From a virus (taxonomy: Duplodnaviria > Heunggongvirae > Uroviricota > Caudoviricetes), in IMG/VR virus record IMGVR_UViG_3300042402_002792: a DNA stretch of 64,000 bases, one strand, 5' to 3'. The notes below the pieces were generated by a model. That model made no database searches, was not told the DNA's origin, and saw nothing but the letters and a program-made list of their open reading frames with translations. Below are positions 7,776 to 64,000 of the stretch, piece by piece. A program made the translations under genes and the position numbers. Numbering within the stretch: the stretch's first letter is position 1; each line of letters opens with the position of its first letter.

Positions 7776-8678
7776 ATGCAAATCAAAGAATTAGCACATC
7801 CAAAAACTAGCCGAGCACTCAATGAAAGTGTTGCACAAAAATTTGGCTATAAACTAAATTTAAATAGTTTCACTATGGAACAGCTACGTGCTGCTAGAGA
7901 TAAAATTACTCGTCAGCTTGCTGAATTTGAAACCAGTAGAAACTATGATGCTGTCTATGAAAGCAACGCTTATCAACGTGATCGTGCCCTATTAGACGTA
8001 ATTACAGTAGCAATTTCAGAGCGTACACTTTCCCCAGGCGAAGAATCAAAGAAAGAAAAGTATGTTAAGGGAATGAAAAAGAAGTCAGGCGAATTTAAAA
8101 AGCGTTATGGCGAAAAAGGCGACGAAGTAATGCATGCCACAGCCACTAAAATGGCTAAGAAAGAAAGTATTGAAGAGGCAATGGAAGTGTTACGCTCTGT
8201 TCTTTCAGAAAGAACTCTAACAGAAGGCGAAGAAGAAAAGGCCGCTCTAATTATGAGCGCAAGAGATATGGTTGACAAGATTACAGGTTGGCTAGAAGAT
8301 GTAGCTAGCATGAAGTCCGAGACTATGTTAGAATTAGTAGACTCTATAAGAGACGAACTAGGCAGTGAAGTCAGTGCTCAATTTTCAGGCAAGACAAAAC
8401 CGGCACTAGATGAATTATACACAGCACTAGAAACAAGCAGAACCACAATGGCGCAGGCAGTAGCAATCCTAACTGGTGAAGAAGCACCAGGAATGGGCGC
8501 AGAGTCTCCAGAAGGTATGCCAGCAGAGCTAGGTGCAGAAGCCATGCCTACAGGTGATGATTTTGCAGCAGCTGAACCAGCAGCTGGCGGAGAAGAAGCA
8601 GCAGGACGTATGAAGCGTGAAAGCGTTGAATATAGTCGCAAGCTAGGCACAATACTAAGTCAACCAAAAAAAAAGTAA
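7776..8678 (+). CDS. Acidic coiled-coil head/scaffold-like protein (300 aa)
   Basis: E/A/P-rich helical sequence with LNE, LSE and LTE sites; ends at slippery CCA AAA AAA AAG TAA. Confidence 0.7.
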   Translation: MQIKELAHPKTSRALNESVAQKFGYKLNLNSFTMEQLRAARDKITRQLAEFETSRNYDAVYESNAYQRDRALLDVITVAISERTLSPGEESKKEKYVKGMKKKSGEFKKRYGEKGDEVMHATATKMAKKESIEEAMEVLRSVLSERTLTEGEEEKAALIMSARDMVDKITGWLEDVASMKSETMLELVDSIRDELGSEVSAQFSGKTKPALDELYTALETSRTTMAQAVAILTGEEAPGMGAESPEGMPAELGAEAMPTGDDFAAAEPAAGGEEAAGRMKRESVEYSRKLGTILSQPKKK

Positions 8679-9001
8679 CAGAAGGCGCTGATAACTTAAT
8701 TCGTGTATTAAACGCATTAAAGGCTCGTTCAGATTCCAAGGGCGTTCCGGGGCAATTTACCTGGGATGCCCTTTCTAATATGATGCGTAATTTCTCTGGC
8801 ACTGCTATAGATTACGAAACATTTAAATCACAGTTTGACGCTGTACCACAAATCAAAAACATTGTAGATAGATTTGACGGAAATGGATTAGTACTCAAAA
8901 CTAAAGAAAAACCTGAAGCTACTCGTTCGGACAAGAATAATACTGGATTAGATCAAGCGGCCAGTCGAGCAGCGGCTAAATCACTTCAACAACCCGGTTG
9001 A
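8675..9001 (+). CDS. -1 frame extension of the 7776 gene (108 codons), or separate short gene from ATG 8780
   Basis: Open frame from 8675 with no start codon until 8780; begins VTEGADNL. Confidence 0.6.
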   Translation, partial: VTEGADNLIRVLNALKARSDSKGVPGQFTWDALSNMMRNFSGTAIDYETFKSQFDAVPQIKNIVDRFDGNGLVLKTKEKPEATRSDKNNTGLDQAASRAAAKSLQQPG

Positions 9002-42087: not shown

Positions 42088-42116
42088 TTGACAACAACTA
42101 AAAATTAGTGTATATT
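42088..42116 (+). promoter_or_regulatory. Sigma70 promoter of tmRNA
   Basis: TTGACA-17-TATATT. Confidence 0.8.
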
Positions 42117-42122
42117 GTAAGT

Positions 42123-42496
42123 TAAGACTGTATGAAGTAGATTGAAAAGGATTCAAGACGCGAGTTCGAATCTCGCCAGGTCCACCATAAAGTACATTAG
42201 CCAACACCCGACATACTGGGATAGTAAGATGGCATTGCCGCTAGTGTATTTTATAATGGGCCTGCTCCGGTAATCGATTGGGTCAAGAGTAATGAAATGG
42301 ACAGTCCGGCAATGTAGAAGCCGTTAGGGTTGGGGTTACCCGGCCGAAGAAGCAAAAAAAGTAAATGCAAAAGCAAATACATTCGAGTATTTCACAGTTG
42401 ACTTCGACATTACAGCAATGAATGACGAGCAATTCGAAATGGCGGCCTAAGAAACCGCAACTCCGGGGTAGGACTTACCTTGTAAAATAAACAACC
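42123..42496 (+). ncRNA. ssrA: Circularly permuted (two-piece) tmRNA
   Basis: T-arm plus CAGGTCC-A-CCA (ends 42187) lies upstream of the 5' strand GGGCCTG (42258); 7-bp acceptor stem with G3.U70; tag frame ends NDEQFEMAA-stop. Confidence 0.88.
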
Positions 42497-42522
42497 ATAG
42501 GACCTTCGGGTCCTATCTTTTT
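42497..42522 (+). terminator. Intrinsic terminator after tmRNA
   Basis: ATAGGACC-TTCG-GGTCCTAT-CTTTTT. Confidence 0.85.
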
Positions 42523-42553
42523 GGCTAAATTAATTAAATTATCGCCTCGAAGT

Positions 42554-61144: not shown

Positions 61145-61720
61145 ATGAATTTATTGTTCCTTCCTATCGATATTGAAATTCCAAAGATTGATCTAACACA
61201 CTCTCTATCTATGATTAGAAAGGGAAAAAAACATCAATGGTGGTGGAACGTCGTTAATATTGATGAATCAGTTGATAAAAATTTAAAATTTATATTAGAT
61301 CAATTACCGTTTGACAAAATAACAAATGTATATTACAAAGAACAAACAAGGCCAGTGTCTCCGCACTGTGATGTATATCCAGATATGAATTTCGAAGAGG
61401 GAGAACACGCTAATATCTTAGATAACGAACCAGCAGGATATCGACTAGTCTTAGAAGGTTCTACTAATGTACTTTATGTTAAAAGTGGAGACACCTTTAA
61501 GTTAGCAGCATTGCCATCTGTGCCTAGTTGTTATCTTTTAAATTCTACAGCAGGGTTACACAAGGTCAAGGATGATCCGGGCAGAAAGATTATCTATGTT
61601 AGAGGATTCATTAATCCTGCTAAACACAAAGTTCTTATAAACAAAAGTTTAAAATTATATCAAAATTTTGCAGTATATGATGTTTCGACTAAAATAGTAG
61701 TTGACACTGAGAATAAATAA
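61145..61720 (+). CDS. 2OG-Fe(II) oxygenase-like protein
   Basis: PHCD...YLLNSTAGLHKV...RKII. Confidence 0.6.
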   Translation: MNLLFLPIDIEIPKIDLTHSLSMIRKGKKHQWWWNVVNIDESVDKNLKFILDQLPFDKITNVYYKEQTRPVSPHCDVYPDMNFEEGEHANILDNEPAGYRLVLEGSTNVLYVKSGDTFKLAALPSVPSCYLLNSTAGLHKVKDDPGRKIIYVRGFINPAKHKVLINKSLKLYQNFAVYDVSTKIVVDTENK

Positions 61721-61912
61721 ATATACAATAGAGACTAGGTTGTACAAAAATTAGTTGTTTTTTAGCCACAATTAAAACAGTGGTTGACAAGAGAACTAAA
61801 TAAATGTACAATAGAGACAAGTTAGCAAACAATGTGATCCGCAAGTGTTGTAAAAATACAACAAAAAAAGATTCCAAAAGTTGTTGACAAGGGCACTGAA
61901 AGGTGCTACAAT
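61701..61912 (+). promoter_or_regulatory. Three tandem sigma70 promoters for the tRNA array
   Basis: TTGACA-17-TACAAT at 61701, 61784, 61884; each followed by AGA(G/T)AC(T/A)AG. Confidence 0.9.
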
Positions 61913-61971
61913 AGATACAAGTTAGTTAGGAATGGTCCTAGCTAATAACAAGGATTTTAAAGAGAAAGCAA

Positions 61972-62106
61972 ATGACAAACGTAACGATACATTATTGCAG
62001 ACAAGACGCCAAACAGGCAGGCTTTATGCCCACCTCTTGGTTACTGTCAAGTAATGATCGTACACCAGAGATTTGCCAGGGGTCCCGGGAGGATCGTGTA
62101 AGTTAA
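61972..62106 (+). CDS. Attenuator leader peptide (44 aa, all 20 amino acids)
   Basis: MTNVTIHYCRQDAKQAGFMPTSWLLSSNDRTPEICQGSREDRVS; overlaps the antiterminator. Confidence 0.7.
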   Translation: MTNVTIHYCRQDAKQAGFMPTSWLLSSNDRTPEICQGSREDRVS

Positions 62107-62159
62107 CACTACACAATTACACCCAGAGGACCCCAGGACTAAACACCCTGGGGTTTTTT
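62079..62159 (+). terminator. Mutually exclusive antiterminator/terminator
   Basis: GGGGTCC(62079-85)/GGACCCC(62128-34) versus ACCCCAGG(62130-37)/CCTGGGGT(62147-54) plus T-tract. Confidence 0.8.
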
Positions 62160-62175
62160 ATTGCTCAAAGGAATT

Positions 62176-62331
62176 ATGACAGAAACAGATAGTAAGAAAC
62201 AACGAGAAGCTGAGTTTACACGTGAGCATACGCTAACTCAAGAAGATCTTCGTAAGATGATCCTTGAAAAGTTTGAACGTGCAAAAGTGTATAGCAAAGC
62301 CGTTAGAAAGCGCGAGATTGCTCAAGGGTAA
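62176..62331 (+). CDS. Small charged protein (51 aa), first ORF after the attenuator
   Basis: AAAGGA SD; MTETDSKKQREAEF... Confidence 0.55.
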   Translation: MTETDSKKQREAEFTREHTLTQEDLRKMILEKFERAKVYSKAVRKREIAQG

Positions 62332-62336
62332 TTGTA

Positions 62337-62441
62337 GACCGCGAAGTGTGTATAGGTAACGAGGACCTAGTCTGCACTTAAAACATAGACAAACGGGCGG
62401 CCTGTAGGATGGAGTTCTTCTTGTAGAACAAAAAATTACAG
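62337..62441 (+). ncRNA. Putative structured ncRNA
   Basis: Stems CCGC/GCGG, AAGTG/CACTT, TAGGT/ACCTA, CTGTA/TACAG, GTTCT/AGAAC. Confidence 0.45.
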
Positions 62442-62442
62442 C

Positions 62443-62561
62443 GTATTAAAGCAGATTGCCGAACAGTCAAATGGCCTATGCCGATGAGTAGTCTGCTTTA
62501 ATACACATATTCTCTTTCCGCTCTTGACGCGGTCAAAAACGCATAGCGGAGAGTGTGTTAT
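62443..62561 (+). ncRNA. Two adjacent stem-bounded RNA cassettes
   Basis: GTATTAAAGCAGATTG/TAGTCTGCTTTAATAC and ACACA..CTCT..CCGCT/AGCGG.AGAG.TGTGT. Confidence 0.55.
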
Positions 62562-62568
62562 AAATTTT

Positions 62569-62657
62569 GGGGGCTGTTCTCTACGGCGGACTGTAAATCC
62601 GTTGCCTTAATATGTAGAGTGGCTGGCAATTAGGTTCGATTCCTTCAGTCCCCACCA
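62569..62657 (+). tRNA. tRNA-Tyr(GUA), D-armless atypical
   Basis: Anticodon arm GCGGA-CTGTAAA-TCCGT, TTCGATT loop, CCA; only about 9 nt where the D-arm should be. Confidence 0.6.
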
Positions 62658-62662
62658 GTTAT

Positions 62663-62738
62663 GCTCGGTTCGTCTATCGGTTTAGGACGCTGCCCTTTCA
62701 AGGCGGAAAGACGGGTTCGATTCCCGTACCGAGTACCA
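62663..62738 (+). tRNA. tRNA-Glu(UUC)
   Basis: Full cloverleaf, loop CTTTCAA, CCA. Confidence 0.93.
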
Positions 62739-62743
62739 AATTT

Positions 62744-62818
62744 GGTTCCAAAGTGTTCATGGACGCACACGACACTGTCACTGTCGAAGAAGGGGATCGT
62801 TACCCCTTGGGACCGCCA
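62744..62818 (+). tRNA. tRNA-Asp(GUC)
   Basis: Cloverleaf, loop CTGTCAC, variant T-loop ATCGTTA, G73, CCA. Confidence 0.9.
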
Positions 62819-62827
62819 TCTTTCTAT

Positions 62828-62906
62828 TCCGTGAAATCCAAGCATGGTGCAAGGACCTGACTGTTAATCAGTGATTAGGTGAGTTCGATCCTCACACACG
62901 GAGCCA
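62828..62906 (+). tRNA. tRNA-Asn(GUU)
   Basis: Loop CTGTTAA, T-arm GTGAG/CTCAC, G73, CCA. Confidence 0.9.
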
Positions 62907-62993
62907 TTATAGAAGCACATACAGATCCGCCCTAAGTCCCGGGGAGATAGCGCGGACACGTTGAAGGACTGTTTAAATGTGTTTCTATAATGG
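62904..62993 (+). ncRNA. Stem-bounded inter-tRNA cassette
   Basis: 17-bp stem CCATTATAGAAGCACAT/ATGTGTTTCTATAATGG. Confidence 0.7.
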
Positions 62994-63066
62994 GGGCAGT
63001 AGTGGGCTACGGGTAACCCTTGCAAGGTTGCTGACTACAAGGGTTCGATTCCCTGGGCTTCCACCA
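62992..63066 (+). tRNA. tRNA-Ala(UGC), shrunken D-arm
   Basis: G3.U70, loop CTTGCAA, D-arm reduced to GTAG-TGGG-CTAC, CCA. Confidence 0.65.
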
Positions 63067-63071
63067 AATTA

Positions 63072-63146
63072 GCTCTGTAAGCATTGCTGGCGATGCAGGC
63101 GCCTTGTAAGCGTCAGAATGGGGTTCGATTCCTCAACGGAGCACCA
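63072..63146 (+). tRNA. tRNA-Thr(UGU)
   Basis: Cloverleaf, loop CTTGTAA, CCA. Confidence 0.92.
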
Positions 63147-63151
63147 ACTAC

Positions 63152-63244
63152 GGAAGTGTGGCTGAGCTGGCTTAAGGCAGCAGGTTGCTAACCTGTCGAT
63201 TCAGATAACTGGGTCCGAGGGTTCGAATCCCTCCGCTTCCACCA
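63152..63244 (+). tRNA. tRNA-Ser(GCU)
   Basis: Long variable arm, loop TTGCTAA, CCA. Confidence 0.93.
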
Positions 63245-63250
63245 AACAAA

Positions 63251-63329
63251 CTGGATGTAATGTCAGTCAGGTCAGACGGCCGGCCTTGGAAGTCGGAGGT
63301 CGCAGGTTCGAATCCTGCCATCCAGACCA
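63251..63329 (+). tRNA. tRNA-Pro(UGG)
   Basis: C1-G72, loop CTTGGAA, CCA. Confidence 0.92.
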
Positions 63330-63334
63330 GTTTA

Positions 63335-63396
63335 AGGATGCTAACAGCAAAAATTTATACATTTGACTTTTAATCAAAACCGTAAAAATGCATCCT
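63335..63396 (+). ncRNA. Stand-alone Lys anticodon stem-loop mimic
   Basis: AGGATGC/GCATCCT closing stem enclosing TTTGA-CTTTTAA-TCAAA. Confidence 0.6.
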
Positions 63397-63429
63397 GTTT
63401 ATTTTAATCAATGTTCAAAGGAGAACGAC

Positions 63430-63486
63430 ATGAAACGTGCTAAACGTTAGTGTCATCCTAGACCCCCGTATGGTCCTGGATGGCAC
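63430..63486 (+). other. Mini-ORF MKRAKR plus adjacent hairpin
   Basis: AAAGGAG SD, ATG AAA CGT GCT AAA CGT TAG, then GTGTCATCC/GGATGGCAC stem. Confidence 0.55.
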
Positions 63487-63512
63487 GTAAAAGAAAATTA
63501 TTTACGAATCAT

Positions 63513-63588
63513 CCACAGCTGGCGTTAACGGTAGCGTACTCGGCTCTTAACCGATGAGGTGTCAGTTCGAATCTGACGCTGTGGACCA
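63513..63588 (+). tRNA. tRNA-Lys(CUU)
   Basis: Loop CTCTTAA, T-arm GTCAG/CTGAC, CCA. Confidence 0.9.
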
Positions 63589-63591
63589 TAT

Positions 63592-63666
63592 GGGGGTATA
63601 ACTTAGCGGCTAAAGTAGTAGGCTTTTAACCTATTAATCAGGGTTCGATTCCCTGTGCCCCTACCA
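63592..63666 (+). tRNA. tRNA-Lys(UUU)
   Basis: Loop CTTTTAA, cloverleaf, CCA. Confidence 0.93.
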
Positions 63667-63774
63667 TAAGCAAACACATTACTGACGCCTCGGCGAAGGG
63701 TTCCGGTTACCCCGTAGCGATTAATAACTAAGCCAGCAGTTGGGTTCGCTGGATGTAGTGTGTTTACTTATGGT
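63663..63774 (+). ncRNA. Stem-bounded inter-tRNA cassette
   Basis: 20-bp stem ACCATAAGCAAACACATTAC/GTAGTGTGTTTACTTATGGT (one mismatch, one G.U). Confidence 0.7.
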
Positions 63775-63846
63775 AAAGTAGCATAATGGTTGTGCAACAC
63801 CTTCATACGGTGCCCGGTGTGAGTTCGAATCTCACCTTTACCACCA
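63772..63846 (+). tRNA. tRNA with CAU anticodon (elongator Met or Ile2)
   Basis: Loop TTCATAC, G1-C72, CCA. Confidence 0.88.
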
Positions 63847-63857
63847 GGTTTTGTTAG

Positions 63858-63959
63858 AGTGTTAGCAAGTGAAGTCACGCTATAAAGGTTTCTTCGAAGG
63901 ACTGATATAGTAGAAGGTGAGGGTTCGATTCCCTGAAAATCTCAACAGGCGAGAACACT
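63858..63959 (+). ncRNA. Putative structured ncRNA with T-arm mimic
   Basis: AGTGTT/AACACT closing stem, GCTATA/TATAGT, AGGG-TTCGATT-CCCT. Confidence 0.45.
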
Positions 63960-64000
63960 GGATGAATCCCAAGTAACGTACCGAGTCCCGCTCGAGTTTA

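What the first reader, a model, noticed from the sequence alone, without database searches (positions are those of the whole stretch)
62443..63774. Family of stem-bounded RNA cassettes with shared arms and variable cargo, one of which is the tmRNA intervening segment
Seen: five elements (42187-42254, 62443-62504, 62503-62558, 62904-62993, 63663-63774) closed by 14-20-bp helices (bulged in 62503-62558). Left arms share roughly AAA(G)YACAT(T) and right arms roughly AGTGTGYTTT, while the 30-72-nt interiors are unrelated but structured. In two, the helix pairs the upstream tRNA's CCA with the next tRNA's first bases. Inference: either a common processing signal that releases a library of small RNAs (decoys, antitoxin or anti-defence RNAs) from the tRNA transcript, or a tiny mobile element that targets tRNA ends. 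Such an element could also explain how this tmRNA became permuted.
Basis: partly seen in the sequence, partly recalled or inferred. Interest (0 to 1): 0.75.

Follow-up and report, generated by a model that had tools for sequence, protein, structure and literature searches.

The report
Swappable hairpin cassettes between phage tRNAs
Between the tRNA genes, and inside the split tmRNA gene, of this uncultivated giant phage sit small RNA modules that share one conserved closing helix but carry very different inner parts; the family occurs in many related phage contigs and matches no RNA family in Rfam 15.

Summary
All five elements fold much better than shuffles. E3 (62907-62991) and E4 (63667-63771) are clear members of a family closed by an 18-bp helix with the core AAACACAYU/AGUGUGUUU. 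E1 and the tmRNA intervening segment E5 are divergent members with compensatory core changes. E2 has only the 7-bp core.

Across 29 distinct relatives, 95% of helix cells pair and 9 of 18 pairs show two-sided changes. In five near-complete relatives every match lies in a tRNA array or the tmRNA intervening segment. In IMG/VR the core starts exactly 8 nt after a tRNA's CCA in 61 of 125 unique elements, mostly after tRNA-Lys(UUU), and the 3' arm pairs with that ACCA tail.

The loop is a slot. It is empty, filled or swapped between the same tRNA pairs, and I count about 106 cargo types. E5's cargo recurs in a tRNA-array cassette of another phage.

Best reading: an RNA-level handle co-transcribed with the tRNAs, cut out by tRNA-processing nucleases, with cargo exchanged by recombination in the arms. 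Expression, the nuclease and cargo function are untested. Transposon-like mobility and a causal role in tmRNA permutation are not supported.

The parts
63667..63771 (+). E4: cassette filling the spacer between tRNA-Lys(UUU) (63592-63666) and tRNA-Met (63772-63846). The helix including the flanking CCA/UGG spans 63663-63774. It has a C.A mismatch at the 4th pair outside the core and a 77-nt cargo.
   Evidence: 58.5 bits; z -4.1. The same junction in relatives holds other cargos or an empty hairpin. The cargo has no match in 2.08 Mb of fetched loci.
62907..62991 (+). E3: cassette filling the spacer between tRNA-Asn(GUU) (62828-62906) and tRNA-Ala(UGC) (62992-63066). The cargo is a conserved three-way junction.
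   Evidence: 61.5 bits; z -6.5; flanking tRNAs; consensus fold; 10 pairs with compensatory change. It is present in L113 and L115. In L112 the same tRNA pair is separated by only 5 nt.
42188..42257 (+). E5: intervening segment of the permuted tmRNA gene, between the CCA of the acceptor piece (42149-42187) and G1 of the coding piece (42258 onward). It is a divergent cassette with core UACAUU...AGUGUA.
   Evidence: domain limits; 21.9 bits; z -3.0. It has the same cargo in L009 and L013, with a compensatory CGCA/UGCG core in L009. The same cargo plus core sits in a tRNA array of L165.
62443..62504 (+). E1: stem-bounded element in the conserved leader of the tRNA array. The arms are GUAUUAAAGCAGAUU / AGUCUGCUUUAAUAC.
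   Evidence: 21.9 bits; z -6.3. The arms are conserved in 11 relatives, with a compensatory UCGAAG/CUUCGA version in L112, and with at least four different cargos.
62503..62558 (+). E2: core-only hairpin (ACACAU...GUGUGU) directly after E1, here filled with about 42 nt.
   Evidence: only 5 bits for the full model; z -3.0. Most relatives have the empty mini-hairpin ACACAUU-(6-nt loop)-AGUGUGU at this place. L116 shares the filled form.

Best explanation
What it is. These are RNA-level modules of the phage's stable-RNA operons. Each is a conserved helix of about 18 bp: an AU-rich outer part, a frequent A.C mismatch at the 4th pair outside the core, and the core AAACACAYU/AGUGUGUUU with a U.G wobble. 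The loop of this helix is an exchangeable slot for an independent, folded insert of about 5-250 nt.

Where it sits. The module sits in spacers that run from the CCA end of one stable RNA to the 5' end of the next. That means after a tRNA, usually tRNA-Lys(UUU) with the core starting exactly 8 nt after CCA, or between the two pieces of the permuted tmRNA. The outermost pairs of the helix include the ACCA tail of the upstream tRNA.

Shown: the helix, its register, its restriction to these contexts, its orientation, and the cargo diversity and swapping.

Inferred: the module is transcribed with the tRNAs. RNase P cuts at the next tRNA's 5' end. A host endonuclease cuts at or near CCA. The candidates are an RNase E-type cut in the weak AU-rich outer helix, or RNase III within the roughly 20-bp duplex. 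The GC-containing core then caps both ends of the released small RNA. New cargos arrive by recombination between co-infecting phages, using the conserved arms and flanking tRNA genes as homology.
For: Helix. 95% of cells pair, 9 of 18 pairs show two-sided changes, and the covariation score is 0.354 against 0.110 in shuffles (0 of 500 reach it). Slid controls pair in 29-64% of cells.

Context. In five relatives 92-100% complete (1.7 Mb), every model match lies in a tRNA array or the tmRNA intervening segment.

Register. The core starts 8 nt after CCA in 61 of 125 unique IMG/VR elements. The upstream tRNA is Lys(UUU) in 33, Gln(UUG) in 8 and Glu(UUC) in 7 of the 64 placed within 12 nt of a tRNA. 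The 3' arm carries UGGU or UGGA opposite the ACCA or UCCA tail in 37 of 41 cases where no tRNA follows directly.

Orientation. Outside the two hallmark positions, G-U outnumbers A-C by 50 to 20 on the tRNA strand, and by 16 to 0 in the relatives. Cargo stems also use G-U on this strand.

Cargo is structured RNA. The E3 family has 10 compensatory pairs. Other cargo hairpins vary compensatorily between phages.

The slot behaves as a slot. It is empty, filled or swapped at the same junctions. There are about 106 cargo clusters among 155 unique elements. The same cargo plus core occurs in a tmRNA intervening segment and in a tRNA array.

Precedent. In E. coli, hairpins directly after CCA are removed endonucleolytically, by RNase E for the proline tRNAs (PMC5291269) and by RNase P for valU/lysT (PMC4176162). 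I take this from the abstracts shown.
Against: - No transcript data exist, so release and accumulation of the cargo RNAs are inferred.
- The nuclease is unknown, and no phage RNase III gene was found.
- A generic processing stem does not need a conserved sequence, yet the core is nearly invariant. The outer 5+5 nt, which the search pattern did not fix, are identical in 19 of 31 cassettes whose tRNA-Lys genes share only about 65% identity. This points to sequence-specific recognition or to recent spread.
- The prevalent A.C at position 4 would be a G.U on the opposite strand, so that one site argues the other way.
- E2-type 7-bp empty hairpins are too short for RNase III.
- The IMG/VR sample was selected by the core pattern, so core conservation there is partly circular.
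Confidence: 0.5

Rival explanations
1. The conserved core helix is above all a sequence-specific binding site for a phage or host protein. Candidates are a processing endonuclease of the Cas6/Csy4 style, a chaperone that loads the cargo, or a nut-like antitermination factor for the long untranslated array. The cargo is then what gets presented. This overlaps with the best explanation but makes recognition, not duplex length, the key.
For: The core is nearly invariant while the adjacent tRNA-Lys genes differ by about 35%. The A.C mismatch and the U.G wobble recur at fixed positions. Empty 7-bp core hairpins are kept in the array leader of most relatives and after tRNA-Lys in L125.
Against: No candidate protein was found, and no gene is consistently linked (ORF survey of arrays). 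Compensatory core variants exist (E1, E5, L009, L191). Core conservation in the IMG/VR set is inflated by how the set was found.
Confidence: 0.2
2. A DNA-level mobile element: a MITE-like or homing element with terminal inverted repeats that targets the 3' ends of tRNA genes.
For: Presence/absence and replacement occur between identical tRNA pairs. The same cassette sits at different junctions: L126 Lys-Met and L114 Glu-Leu. The same cargo plus core sits in a tmRNA gene and in a tRNA array. The arms are more uniform than the neighbouring tRNAs.
Against: There is no target-site duplication. At the Asn-Ala site the 5-nt spacer is replaced outright. No cargo type is repeated within one genome, unlike MITEs. 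Non-Watson-Crick pairs are biased to G-U on the tRNA strand. The cargos show RNA covariation. No transposase or homing-endonuclease-like ORF stood out beside cassettes (Pfam was run on three of these ORFs only). The upstream tRNA-Lys 3' ends differ in sequence, so there is no common DNA target.
Confidence: 0.12
3. Passive structural spacers. The helix only insulates neighbouring tRNAs from misfolding, or hides untranslated RNA from Rho and exonucleases. The cargo is neutral filler.
For: Every larger spacer in these arrays is stem-bounded, including other arm families. The empty forms seem to be tolerated.
Against: Cargo families are conserved across phages with compensatory stem changes. Core sequence conservation is not needed for insulation. 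Most tRNA junctions manage with 1-8 nt spacers.
Confidence: 0.1
4. Chance AT-rich stems, or decayed tRNA genes.
For: A few cargos end in a T-arm-like hairpin directly before the 3' arm (L017 intervening segment, L118:6036-6164).
Against: The statistics exclude chance. Rfam's tRNA model does not match E1-E5 even at E up to 10. Most cargos have no tRNA features.
Confidence: 0.03

Closest known systems
RNA C and RNA D (stable 'species 1 and 2' RNAs) of the phage T4 tRNA region
   Same: Small non-tRNA RNAs transcribed from within a phage tRNA cluster. Their role is still unknown (PMC3014915).
   Different: Only two RNAs are known there. No shared conserved closing helix, no exchangeable cargo and no link to tmRNA have been described. 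I had no T4 sequence in hand, so I did not compare sequences.
Processing stems of stable-RNA operons, and hairpins abutting CCA in E. coli tRNA operons
   Same: A helix made from the two flanks of an RNA, or a hairpin right after CCA, is removed endonucleolytically. RNase III does this at rRNA stems (textbook knowledge). RNase E does it after the proline tRNAs (PMC5291269). RNase P does it at valU/lysT terminators (PMC4176162).
   Different: Those helices are not a sequence-conserved family with hundreds of unrelated inserts. Cleavage here is not shown.
PeSL mobile regulatory cassettes of T4-type phages
   Same: Short conserved stem-loop motifs bound variable modules and mediate their shuffling between phages (PMC2839356, PMC4122927).
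   Different: PeSLs are promoter-plus-terminator DNA motifs flanking protein genes. Here the repeats are inverted, lie inside a tRNA transcript and enclose non-coding RNA. No promoter-like site lies at the cassettes.
Intervening segment of permuted (two-piece) tmRNA genes
   Same: E5 is exactly this: the stretch between the CCA of the acceptor piece and the 5' end of the coding piece, removed by tRNA-processing enzymes (PMC11915505).
   Different: That paper, as far as I read it, does not describe the intervening segment as a slot sharing a conserved helix with tRNA-array spacers. It calls a tRNA gene inside one intervening segment a unique feature. Here, relatives carry a tRNA, ORFs or cassettes there.
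Integron attC sites
   Same: Imperfect inverted repeats with conserved ends, a fixed unpaired position and a highly variable centre, folded as one strand. Linked to cassette exchange.
   Different: The attC core consensus GTTRRRY is absent, and I searched for no integrase. The elements are oriented with, and in register with, tRNA transcripts. This is an analogy only, drawn from my own knowledge.
GOLLD and ROOL RNAs near phage tRNA islands
   Same: Structured non-coding RNAs of unknown role in phage tRNA arrays. GOLLD itself lies in the arrays of relatives L117 and L118, and one cassette abuts its 3' end (PMC12286853).
   Different: Those are large single families (400-800 nt) with conserved cores, not a small handle with unrelated inserts.

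Membership tests
Any Rfam 15 family (4227 models, including tRNA, hammerhead, twister and HDV-like ribozymes, GOLLD) | Match to a curated covariance model | tested here: not met
   Searches (gathering threshold; E up to 10, 61700-64000) give no hit on E1-E4. E5 lies inside the tmRNA_permuted match (RF04321, 83 bits) but is an unmodelled insert.
Permuted tmRNA intervening segment (E5 only) | Lies between the CCA of the acceptor piece and G1 of the coding piece of a permuted tmRNA gene | tested here: met
   the 3' tRNA domain ends at 42187 and the 5' tRNA domain starts at 42258. RF04321 at 83 bits.
The cassette family defined here (model R1) | 18-bp closing helix with the core CACAYU/ARUGUG and AU-rich outer arms | tested here: met
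   E3 61.5 bits and E4 58.5 bits. E1 and E5 21.9 bits each. E2 5 bits, so not met for E2, which has the core only.
The cassette family defined here (model R1) | Placed in a CCA-to-next-5'-end spacer of a stable-RNA operon, same strand as the tRNAs | tested here: met
   E3, E4 and E5 meet it. E1 and E2 lie in the array leader before the first tRNA.
RNase III processing stem | About two turns (about 20 bp) of duplex RNA | tested here: inconclusive
   There are 18 pairs plus 2-4 inner pairs in many members, but often with one mismatch. The empty E2-type hairpins have only 7 bp.
RNase III processing stem | Staggered cleavage in the duplex by RNase III | not testable with these tools
   No transcript ends are available. 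No phage RNase III gene was found in five relatives, with the positive controls ringing.
MITE / small transposon | Terminal inverted repeats | tested here: met
   The arms are inverted repeats.
MITE / small transposon | Target-site duplication and several near-identical copies per genome | tested here: not met
   The empty and filled Asn-Ala site shows replacement of the spacer with no duplication. Each genome has 1-5 cassettes, all with different cargo.
Integron attC | R''/R' core sites (RYYYAAC / GTTRRRY) and an integron integrase | tested here: not met
   The arm consensus does not contain these cores. I did not search for an integrase.
PeSL cassette | Early promoter joined to a terminator stem-loop, flanking ORFs | tested here: not met
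   No promoter-like site lies at E1-E4. The only strong sites are 61701-61912. The cargo is non-coding.
T4 RNA C/D-type stable RNA | Accumulating stable RNA processed from the tRNA-cluster transcript | not testable with these tools
   Position and orientation fit. Accumulation is unknown, and I did not compare sequences.

The most novel reading that the evidence does not exclude
The conserved hairpin is a communal docking slot, a kind of 'RNA integron', in the tRNA and tmRNA operons of uncultivated freshwater phages. More than a hundred unrelated small structured RNAs are swapped into it by recombination. In the tmRNA slot the occupant can even be a tRNA or a small membrane-protein ORF. Host tRNA-processing enzymes express the occupant, and a sequence-specific partner recognises it through the invariant handle. 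The tie to tRNA-Lys(UUU), Gln(UUG) and Glu(UUC) would then mean that the cargos are host-takeover or counter-defence RNAs deployed together with the tRNAs that anticodon nucleases target.
Probability: 0.3. Interest if true: 0.9.

Novelty: new variant of a known kind. Interest (0 to 1): 0.78.

Why it matters
Phage tRNA arrays are usually read as lists of tRNAs. Here the spacers hold a large family of small RNAs that matches nothing in Rfam 15. They are built on one conserved handle, and the sample alone contains about 106 cargo types.

If the cargos are released and active, this is a new reservoir of phage regulatory or counter-defence RNAs. It would also be a natural 'tRNA-scaffold' expression system.

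The finding shows that the intervening segment of a permuted tmRNA gene is not junk. It is an expression slot shared with the tRNA arrays. It also offers a concrete, testable case of modular exchange of non-coding RNA between phages.

In practical terms, covariance model R1 can annotate these elements in metagenomes. The invariant helix is a ready bait for finding its partner.

Tried and rejected
- GenBank phages. Megablast and blastn of the array and of E3 found only tRNA-level similarity or nothing.
- Own assembly. It is not held, and the nearest record G001 lacks both loci.
- Flanking protein. The 191-aa protein next to the array gave one distant locus without the array.
- Phage RNase III genes. 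None were found.
- Cargo as antisense. E1-E5 cargos have no significant complementary match in the window or in 2.08 Mb of fetched loci, apart from homologous cassettes. The host is unknown, so its toxin-antitoxin and CRISPR loci could not be searched.
- Bacterial genomes. The strict pattern hits only 4 stretches on three small contigs assigned to a Planktophila MAG, a Polynucleobacter MAG and a gammaproteobacterial assembly. This is not a host repeat family.
- Shared cargo motif. The idea of a common (R)UAG junction arose from reading. I did not test it statistically and dropped it.
- Resemblance of E1's 3' arm to rrn boxA and of the 3' arm to boxC. This came from my memory only. The arm is paired, so I did not pursue it.
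- My first strand call paired arms of unequal length and was unreliable. replace it. ignores position 4, so its 103-to-9 result rests largely on the core U.G.
- An 87-nt look-alike in tRNA-less contigs. The flanking DNA matches Pasteurella multocida plasmid records, and it is one sequence seen in about ten related prophage-like contigs. I take it as an unrelated match of the search pattern.
- ORFs inside relatives' arrays. I saw no homing endonuclease next to cassettes. Only three of these ORFs were run through Pfam.
Full report
**Setting.** The window is part of an uncultivated phage. It has no near match in GenBank phages. Its relatives in IMG/VR are 280-353 kb contigs.

The tRNA array begins at about 62,570 and runs off the window. 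ARAGORN finds 8 tRNAs at default settings. At a relaxed threshold it finds four more: 62569-62657, Asn 62828-62906, Ala 62992-63066 and 63856-63943.

A permuted tmRNA gene lies at 42095-42541 (RF04321 at 83 bits). Its acceptor piece ends with CCA at 42187 and its coding piece starts at 42258. The intervening segment is therefore 42188-42257.

**The five elements.** Each folds into a hairpin-closed structure more stable than dinucleotide shuffles, with z from -3.0 to -6.5. E3 fills the Asn-Ala spacer exactly and E4 fills the Lys(UUU)-Met spacer exactly. In both, the helix can extend over the upstream CCA and the first G's of the next tRNA. No Rfam family matches them, even at E up to 10. Their cargos are unrelated to each other.

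**Relatives show a true family.**
- I fetched 80 loci around homologues of the protein next to the tmRNA, and the tRNA arrays of 17 relatives. The arrays hold 16-36 tRNAs each.
- The spacer table and a core-seeded scan show the same helix again and again, with different interiors.
- Twenty-nine distinct cassettes align over both arms.
- For the 18-pair helix, 95% of cells pair and 9 pairs change on both sides. The covariation score is 0.354 against 0.110 in shuffles (0 of 500 reach it). Sliding the partner by 1-3 columns drops pairing to 29-64%.
- The 4th pair outside the core is unpaired in 18 of 29 cassettes, mostly as A.C or C.A. The first pair inside the core is U.G in 20 of 29.

**The covariance model.** Model R1 scores E3 at 61.5 bits and E4 at 58.5 bits in the whole window. 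Both were training rows. E1 and E5 were not, and they score 21.9 bits each when the filters are off. E2 scores 5 bits.

**E1 and E2 in relatives.** Together they form a conserved leader of the array.
- E1's arms are kept in 11 relatives, once with compensatory changes, around at least four different cargos.
- E2 is the bare core. In most relatives it is an empty 7-bp hairpin with a 6-nt loop. In the window and in L116 the loop is replaced by about 40 nt.

**Where the family occurs.**
- In five relatives 92-100% complete (1.7 Mb), every R1 match is inside the tRNA array or is the tmRNA intervening segment.
R1 gave 189 matches at E up to 0.001 across the first 80 loci, often several per locus.
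- Of 125 unique elements taken on the tRNA strand, 61 have the core exactly 8 nt after the end of a called tRNA. The upstream tRNA is Lys(UUU) in 33, Gln(UUG) in 8 and Glu(UUC) in 7 of the 64 lying within 12 nt of a tRNA.
- The 3' side is looser. Only 22 have the next tRNA at the fixed 9 nt.
- Where no tRNA follows directly, the 3' arm still carries UGGU or UGGA opposite the upstream ACCA or UCCA in 37 of 41 cases. The pairing with the tRNA's 3' tail is therefore a property of the element.
- About a third of the elements do not abut an NCCA end. They follow another cassette, GOLLD RNA or something uncalled.
- The strict form is almost absent from 185,579 species genomes. It gives four stretches on three small contigs, assigned to two freshwater MAGs (Planktophila, Polynucleobacter) and a gammaproteobacterial assembly.

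**Which strand folds.** Outside the two hallmark sites, G-U outnumbers A-C on the tRNA strand by 16 to 0 in the relatives and by 50 to 20 in IMG/VR. The core U.G favours this strand. The position-4 A.C favours the other strand, and I say so plainly. Cargo stems also use G-U on the tRNA strand, and the E3 cargo family has 10 compensatory pairs in a three-way junction. I conclude that selection acts on the transcript made with the tRNAs.

**The loop is a slot.**
- Lys(UUU) junction: cargos of 39-98 nt in the relatives and 77 nt in the window, and an empty 43-nt hairpin in L125.
- Asn-Ala junction: E3 is present in the window, L113 and L115. In L112 the spacer is 5 nt.
- The same cargo sits at different junctions with different outer arms: L126 against L114 and L123.
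- About 106 cargo clusters occur among 155 unique elements, and none repeats within a genome.

**The tmRNA link.**
- Relatives' intervening segments range from 24 to 232 nt.
- About a third have the canonical core, among them L015, L017, L054 and L080. So do the intervening segments of other phage tmRNAs with different acceptor stems, namely L149, L155, L173, L184, L187 and L203.
- E5 has a compensatory core variant. The same cargo with the same variant lies in a tRNA array of another phage, just before tRNA-Leu(UAG) (L165).
- The tmRNA slot and the tRNA-array slots therefore draw on one pool.
- In tmRNA precursors the leader UGAU can pair with ACCA, with an A.C at C74. The acceptor stem would then continue into the cassette helix. 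This is my reading of the sequences.

**Mechanism.** Shown: the helix, its register, its context, its orientation, and the exchange. Inferred: release of the cargo by RNase P on the 3' side, and by an endonuclease at or near CCA. E. coli offers precedents, with RNase E and RNase P removing hairpins that abut CCA (PMC5291269 and PMC4176162; abstracts). The roughly 20-bp duplex would also suit RNase III. The phages encode no RNase III, so a host enzyme is implied.

The outer arms are uniform next to tRNA-Lys genes that share only about 65% identity. This suggests sequence-specific recognition or recent spread. I keep both as rivals because the sample was selected by the core pattern.

**Permutation.** The permuted gene order is common to all relatives, while the occupant of the intervening segment varies freely. 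The cassette therefore did not cause the permutation. It uses the intervening segment because that segment is a CCA-to-5'-end spacer like those between tRNAs.

**What is known.** The literature searches found none of the following: a conserved-handle/variable-cargo family in tRNA arrays, or a described link between such spacers and tmRNA intervening segments. The nearest items are:
- T4 RNA C/D, of unknown role (PMC3014915);
- PeSL shuffling cassettes (PMC2839356 and PMC4122927);
- GOLLD/ROOL near tRNA islands (PMC12286853);
- the tmRNA database paper, which calls a tRNA gene inside one intervening segment a unique feature (PMC11915505).

**Verdict.** I file it as a new variant of stable-RNA processing stems and embedded small RNAs. 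There is about a 0.3 chance that it is something categorically new: a recombinational slot system for phage small RNAs.

Noticed in passing
window 63417-63488: A Shine-Dalgarno site and a 6-codon ORF, MKRAKR (63430-63450), are followed by a covarying hairpin about 60 nt before tRNA-Lys(CUU) and tRNA-Lys(UUU). The unit is conserved in seven relatives as MKRAKR, MKRGKL, MKRSSAKL or MKRSGKR. It looks like a leader peptide that could sense Lys/Arg decoding ahead of the phage's own tRNA-Lys genes.
   Followed up: partly
window 63334-63405; several junctions in L112-L114: A second repeated spacer family, with arms AGGAUGC...GCAUCCU followed by a U-rich run, occurs at different tRNA junctions in relatives.
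   Followed up: no
L003, L020, L046, L050, L057, L072, L029 (tmRNA intervening segments); L122:8697-8903: In many relatives the tmRNA intervening segment encodes a small hydrophobic peptide whose Shine-Dalgarno site lies in the closing helix. In G004 it encodes a 68-aa DUF2061 membrane protein (Pfam 3e-20). These are protein-coding inserts inside a tmRNA precursor.
   Followed up: partly
L002 and L053, tmRNA intervening segment (108 nt): By my reading of the sequence, this intervening segment contains a complete tRNA-like gene ending in CCA; I did not run a tRNA finder on it. The tmRNA database paper reports one such case elsewhere as a unique feature (PMC11915505).
   Followed up: no
L118:8159-8621 and L117:6346-6809: GOLLD RNA (RF02032, 215 and 193 bits) lies inside the tRNA arrays of two relatives. 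In L118 a cassette starts 6 nt after it (8627-8729).
   Followed up: no
window 61701-61912 and 62118-62331: Three tandem near-consensus promoters (TTGACA, 17 nt, TACAAT) lie upstream of the array. They are followed by a terminator-like GC hairpin with a U-run at about 62118-62160 and a 56-aa ORF (62161-62331) with no Pfam match.
   Followed up: partly
window 62569-62657, 62828-62906, 62992-63066, 63856-63943: Four tRNA-like genes are missed by ARAGORN at default settings and by Rfam's gathering score. They include an Ala tRNA with G3:U70 and a long-variable-arm tRNA with a bulged acceptor stem.
   Followed up: partly
L113:665-892 and homologues in L112, L114, L118, L123: A 75-aa RNA polymerase omega (Rpb6/RpoZ)-like ORF (Pfam 2e-11) recurs inside the tRNA arrays of relatives.
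   Followed up: no
L112:8073-8234, L113 (Glu to Tyr spacer), L128:3798-3947: Another arm family: 18-19-bp perfect stems directly after tRNA-Glu(UUC) with a UCCA end, enclosing 100-130 nt.
   Followed up: no
L207:3802-3888 and about ten related prophage-like contigs: An 87-nt inverted repeat has the same core words but no tRNAs nearby. DNA about 250 nt upstream of it matches Pasteurella multocida plasmid records. It is probably an unrelated match of the search pattern.
   Followed up: partly
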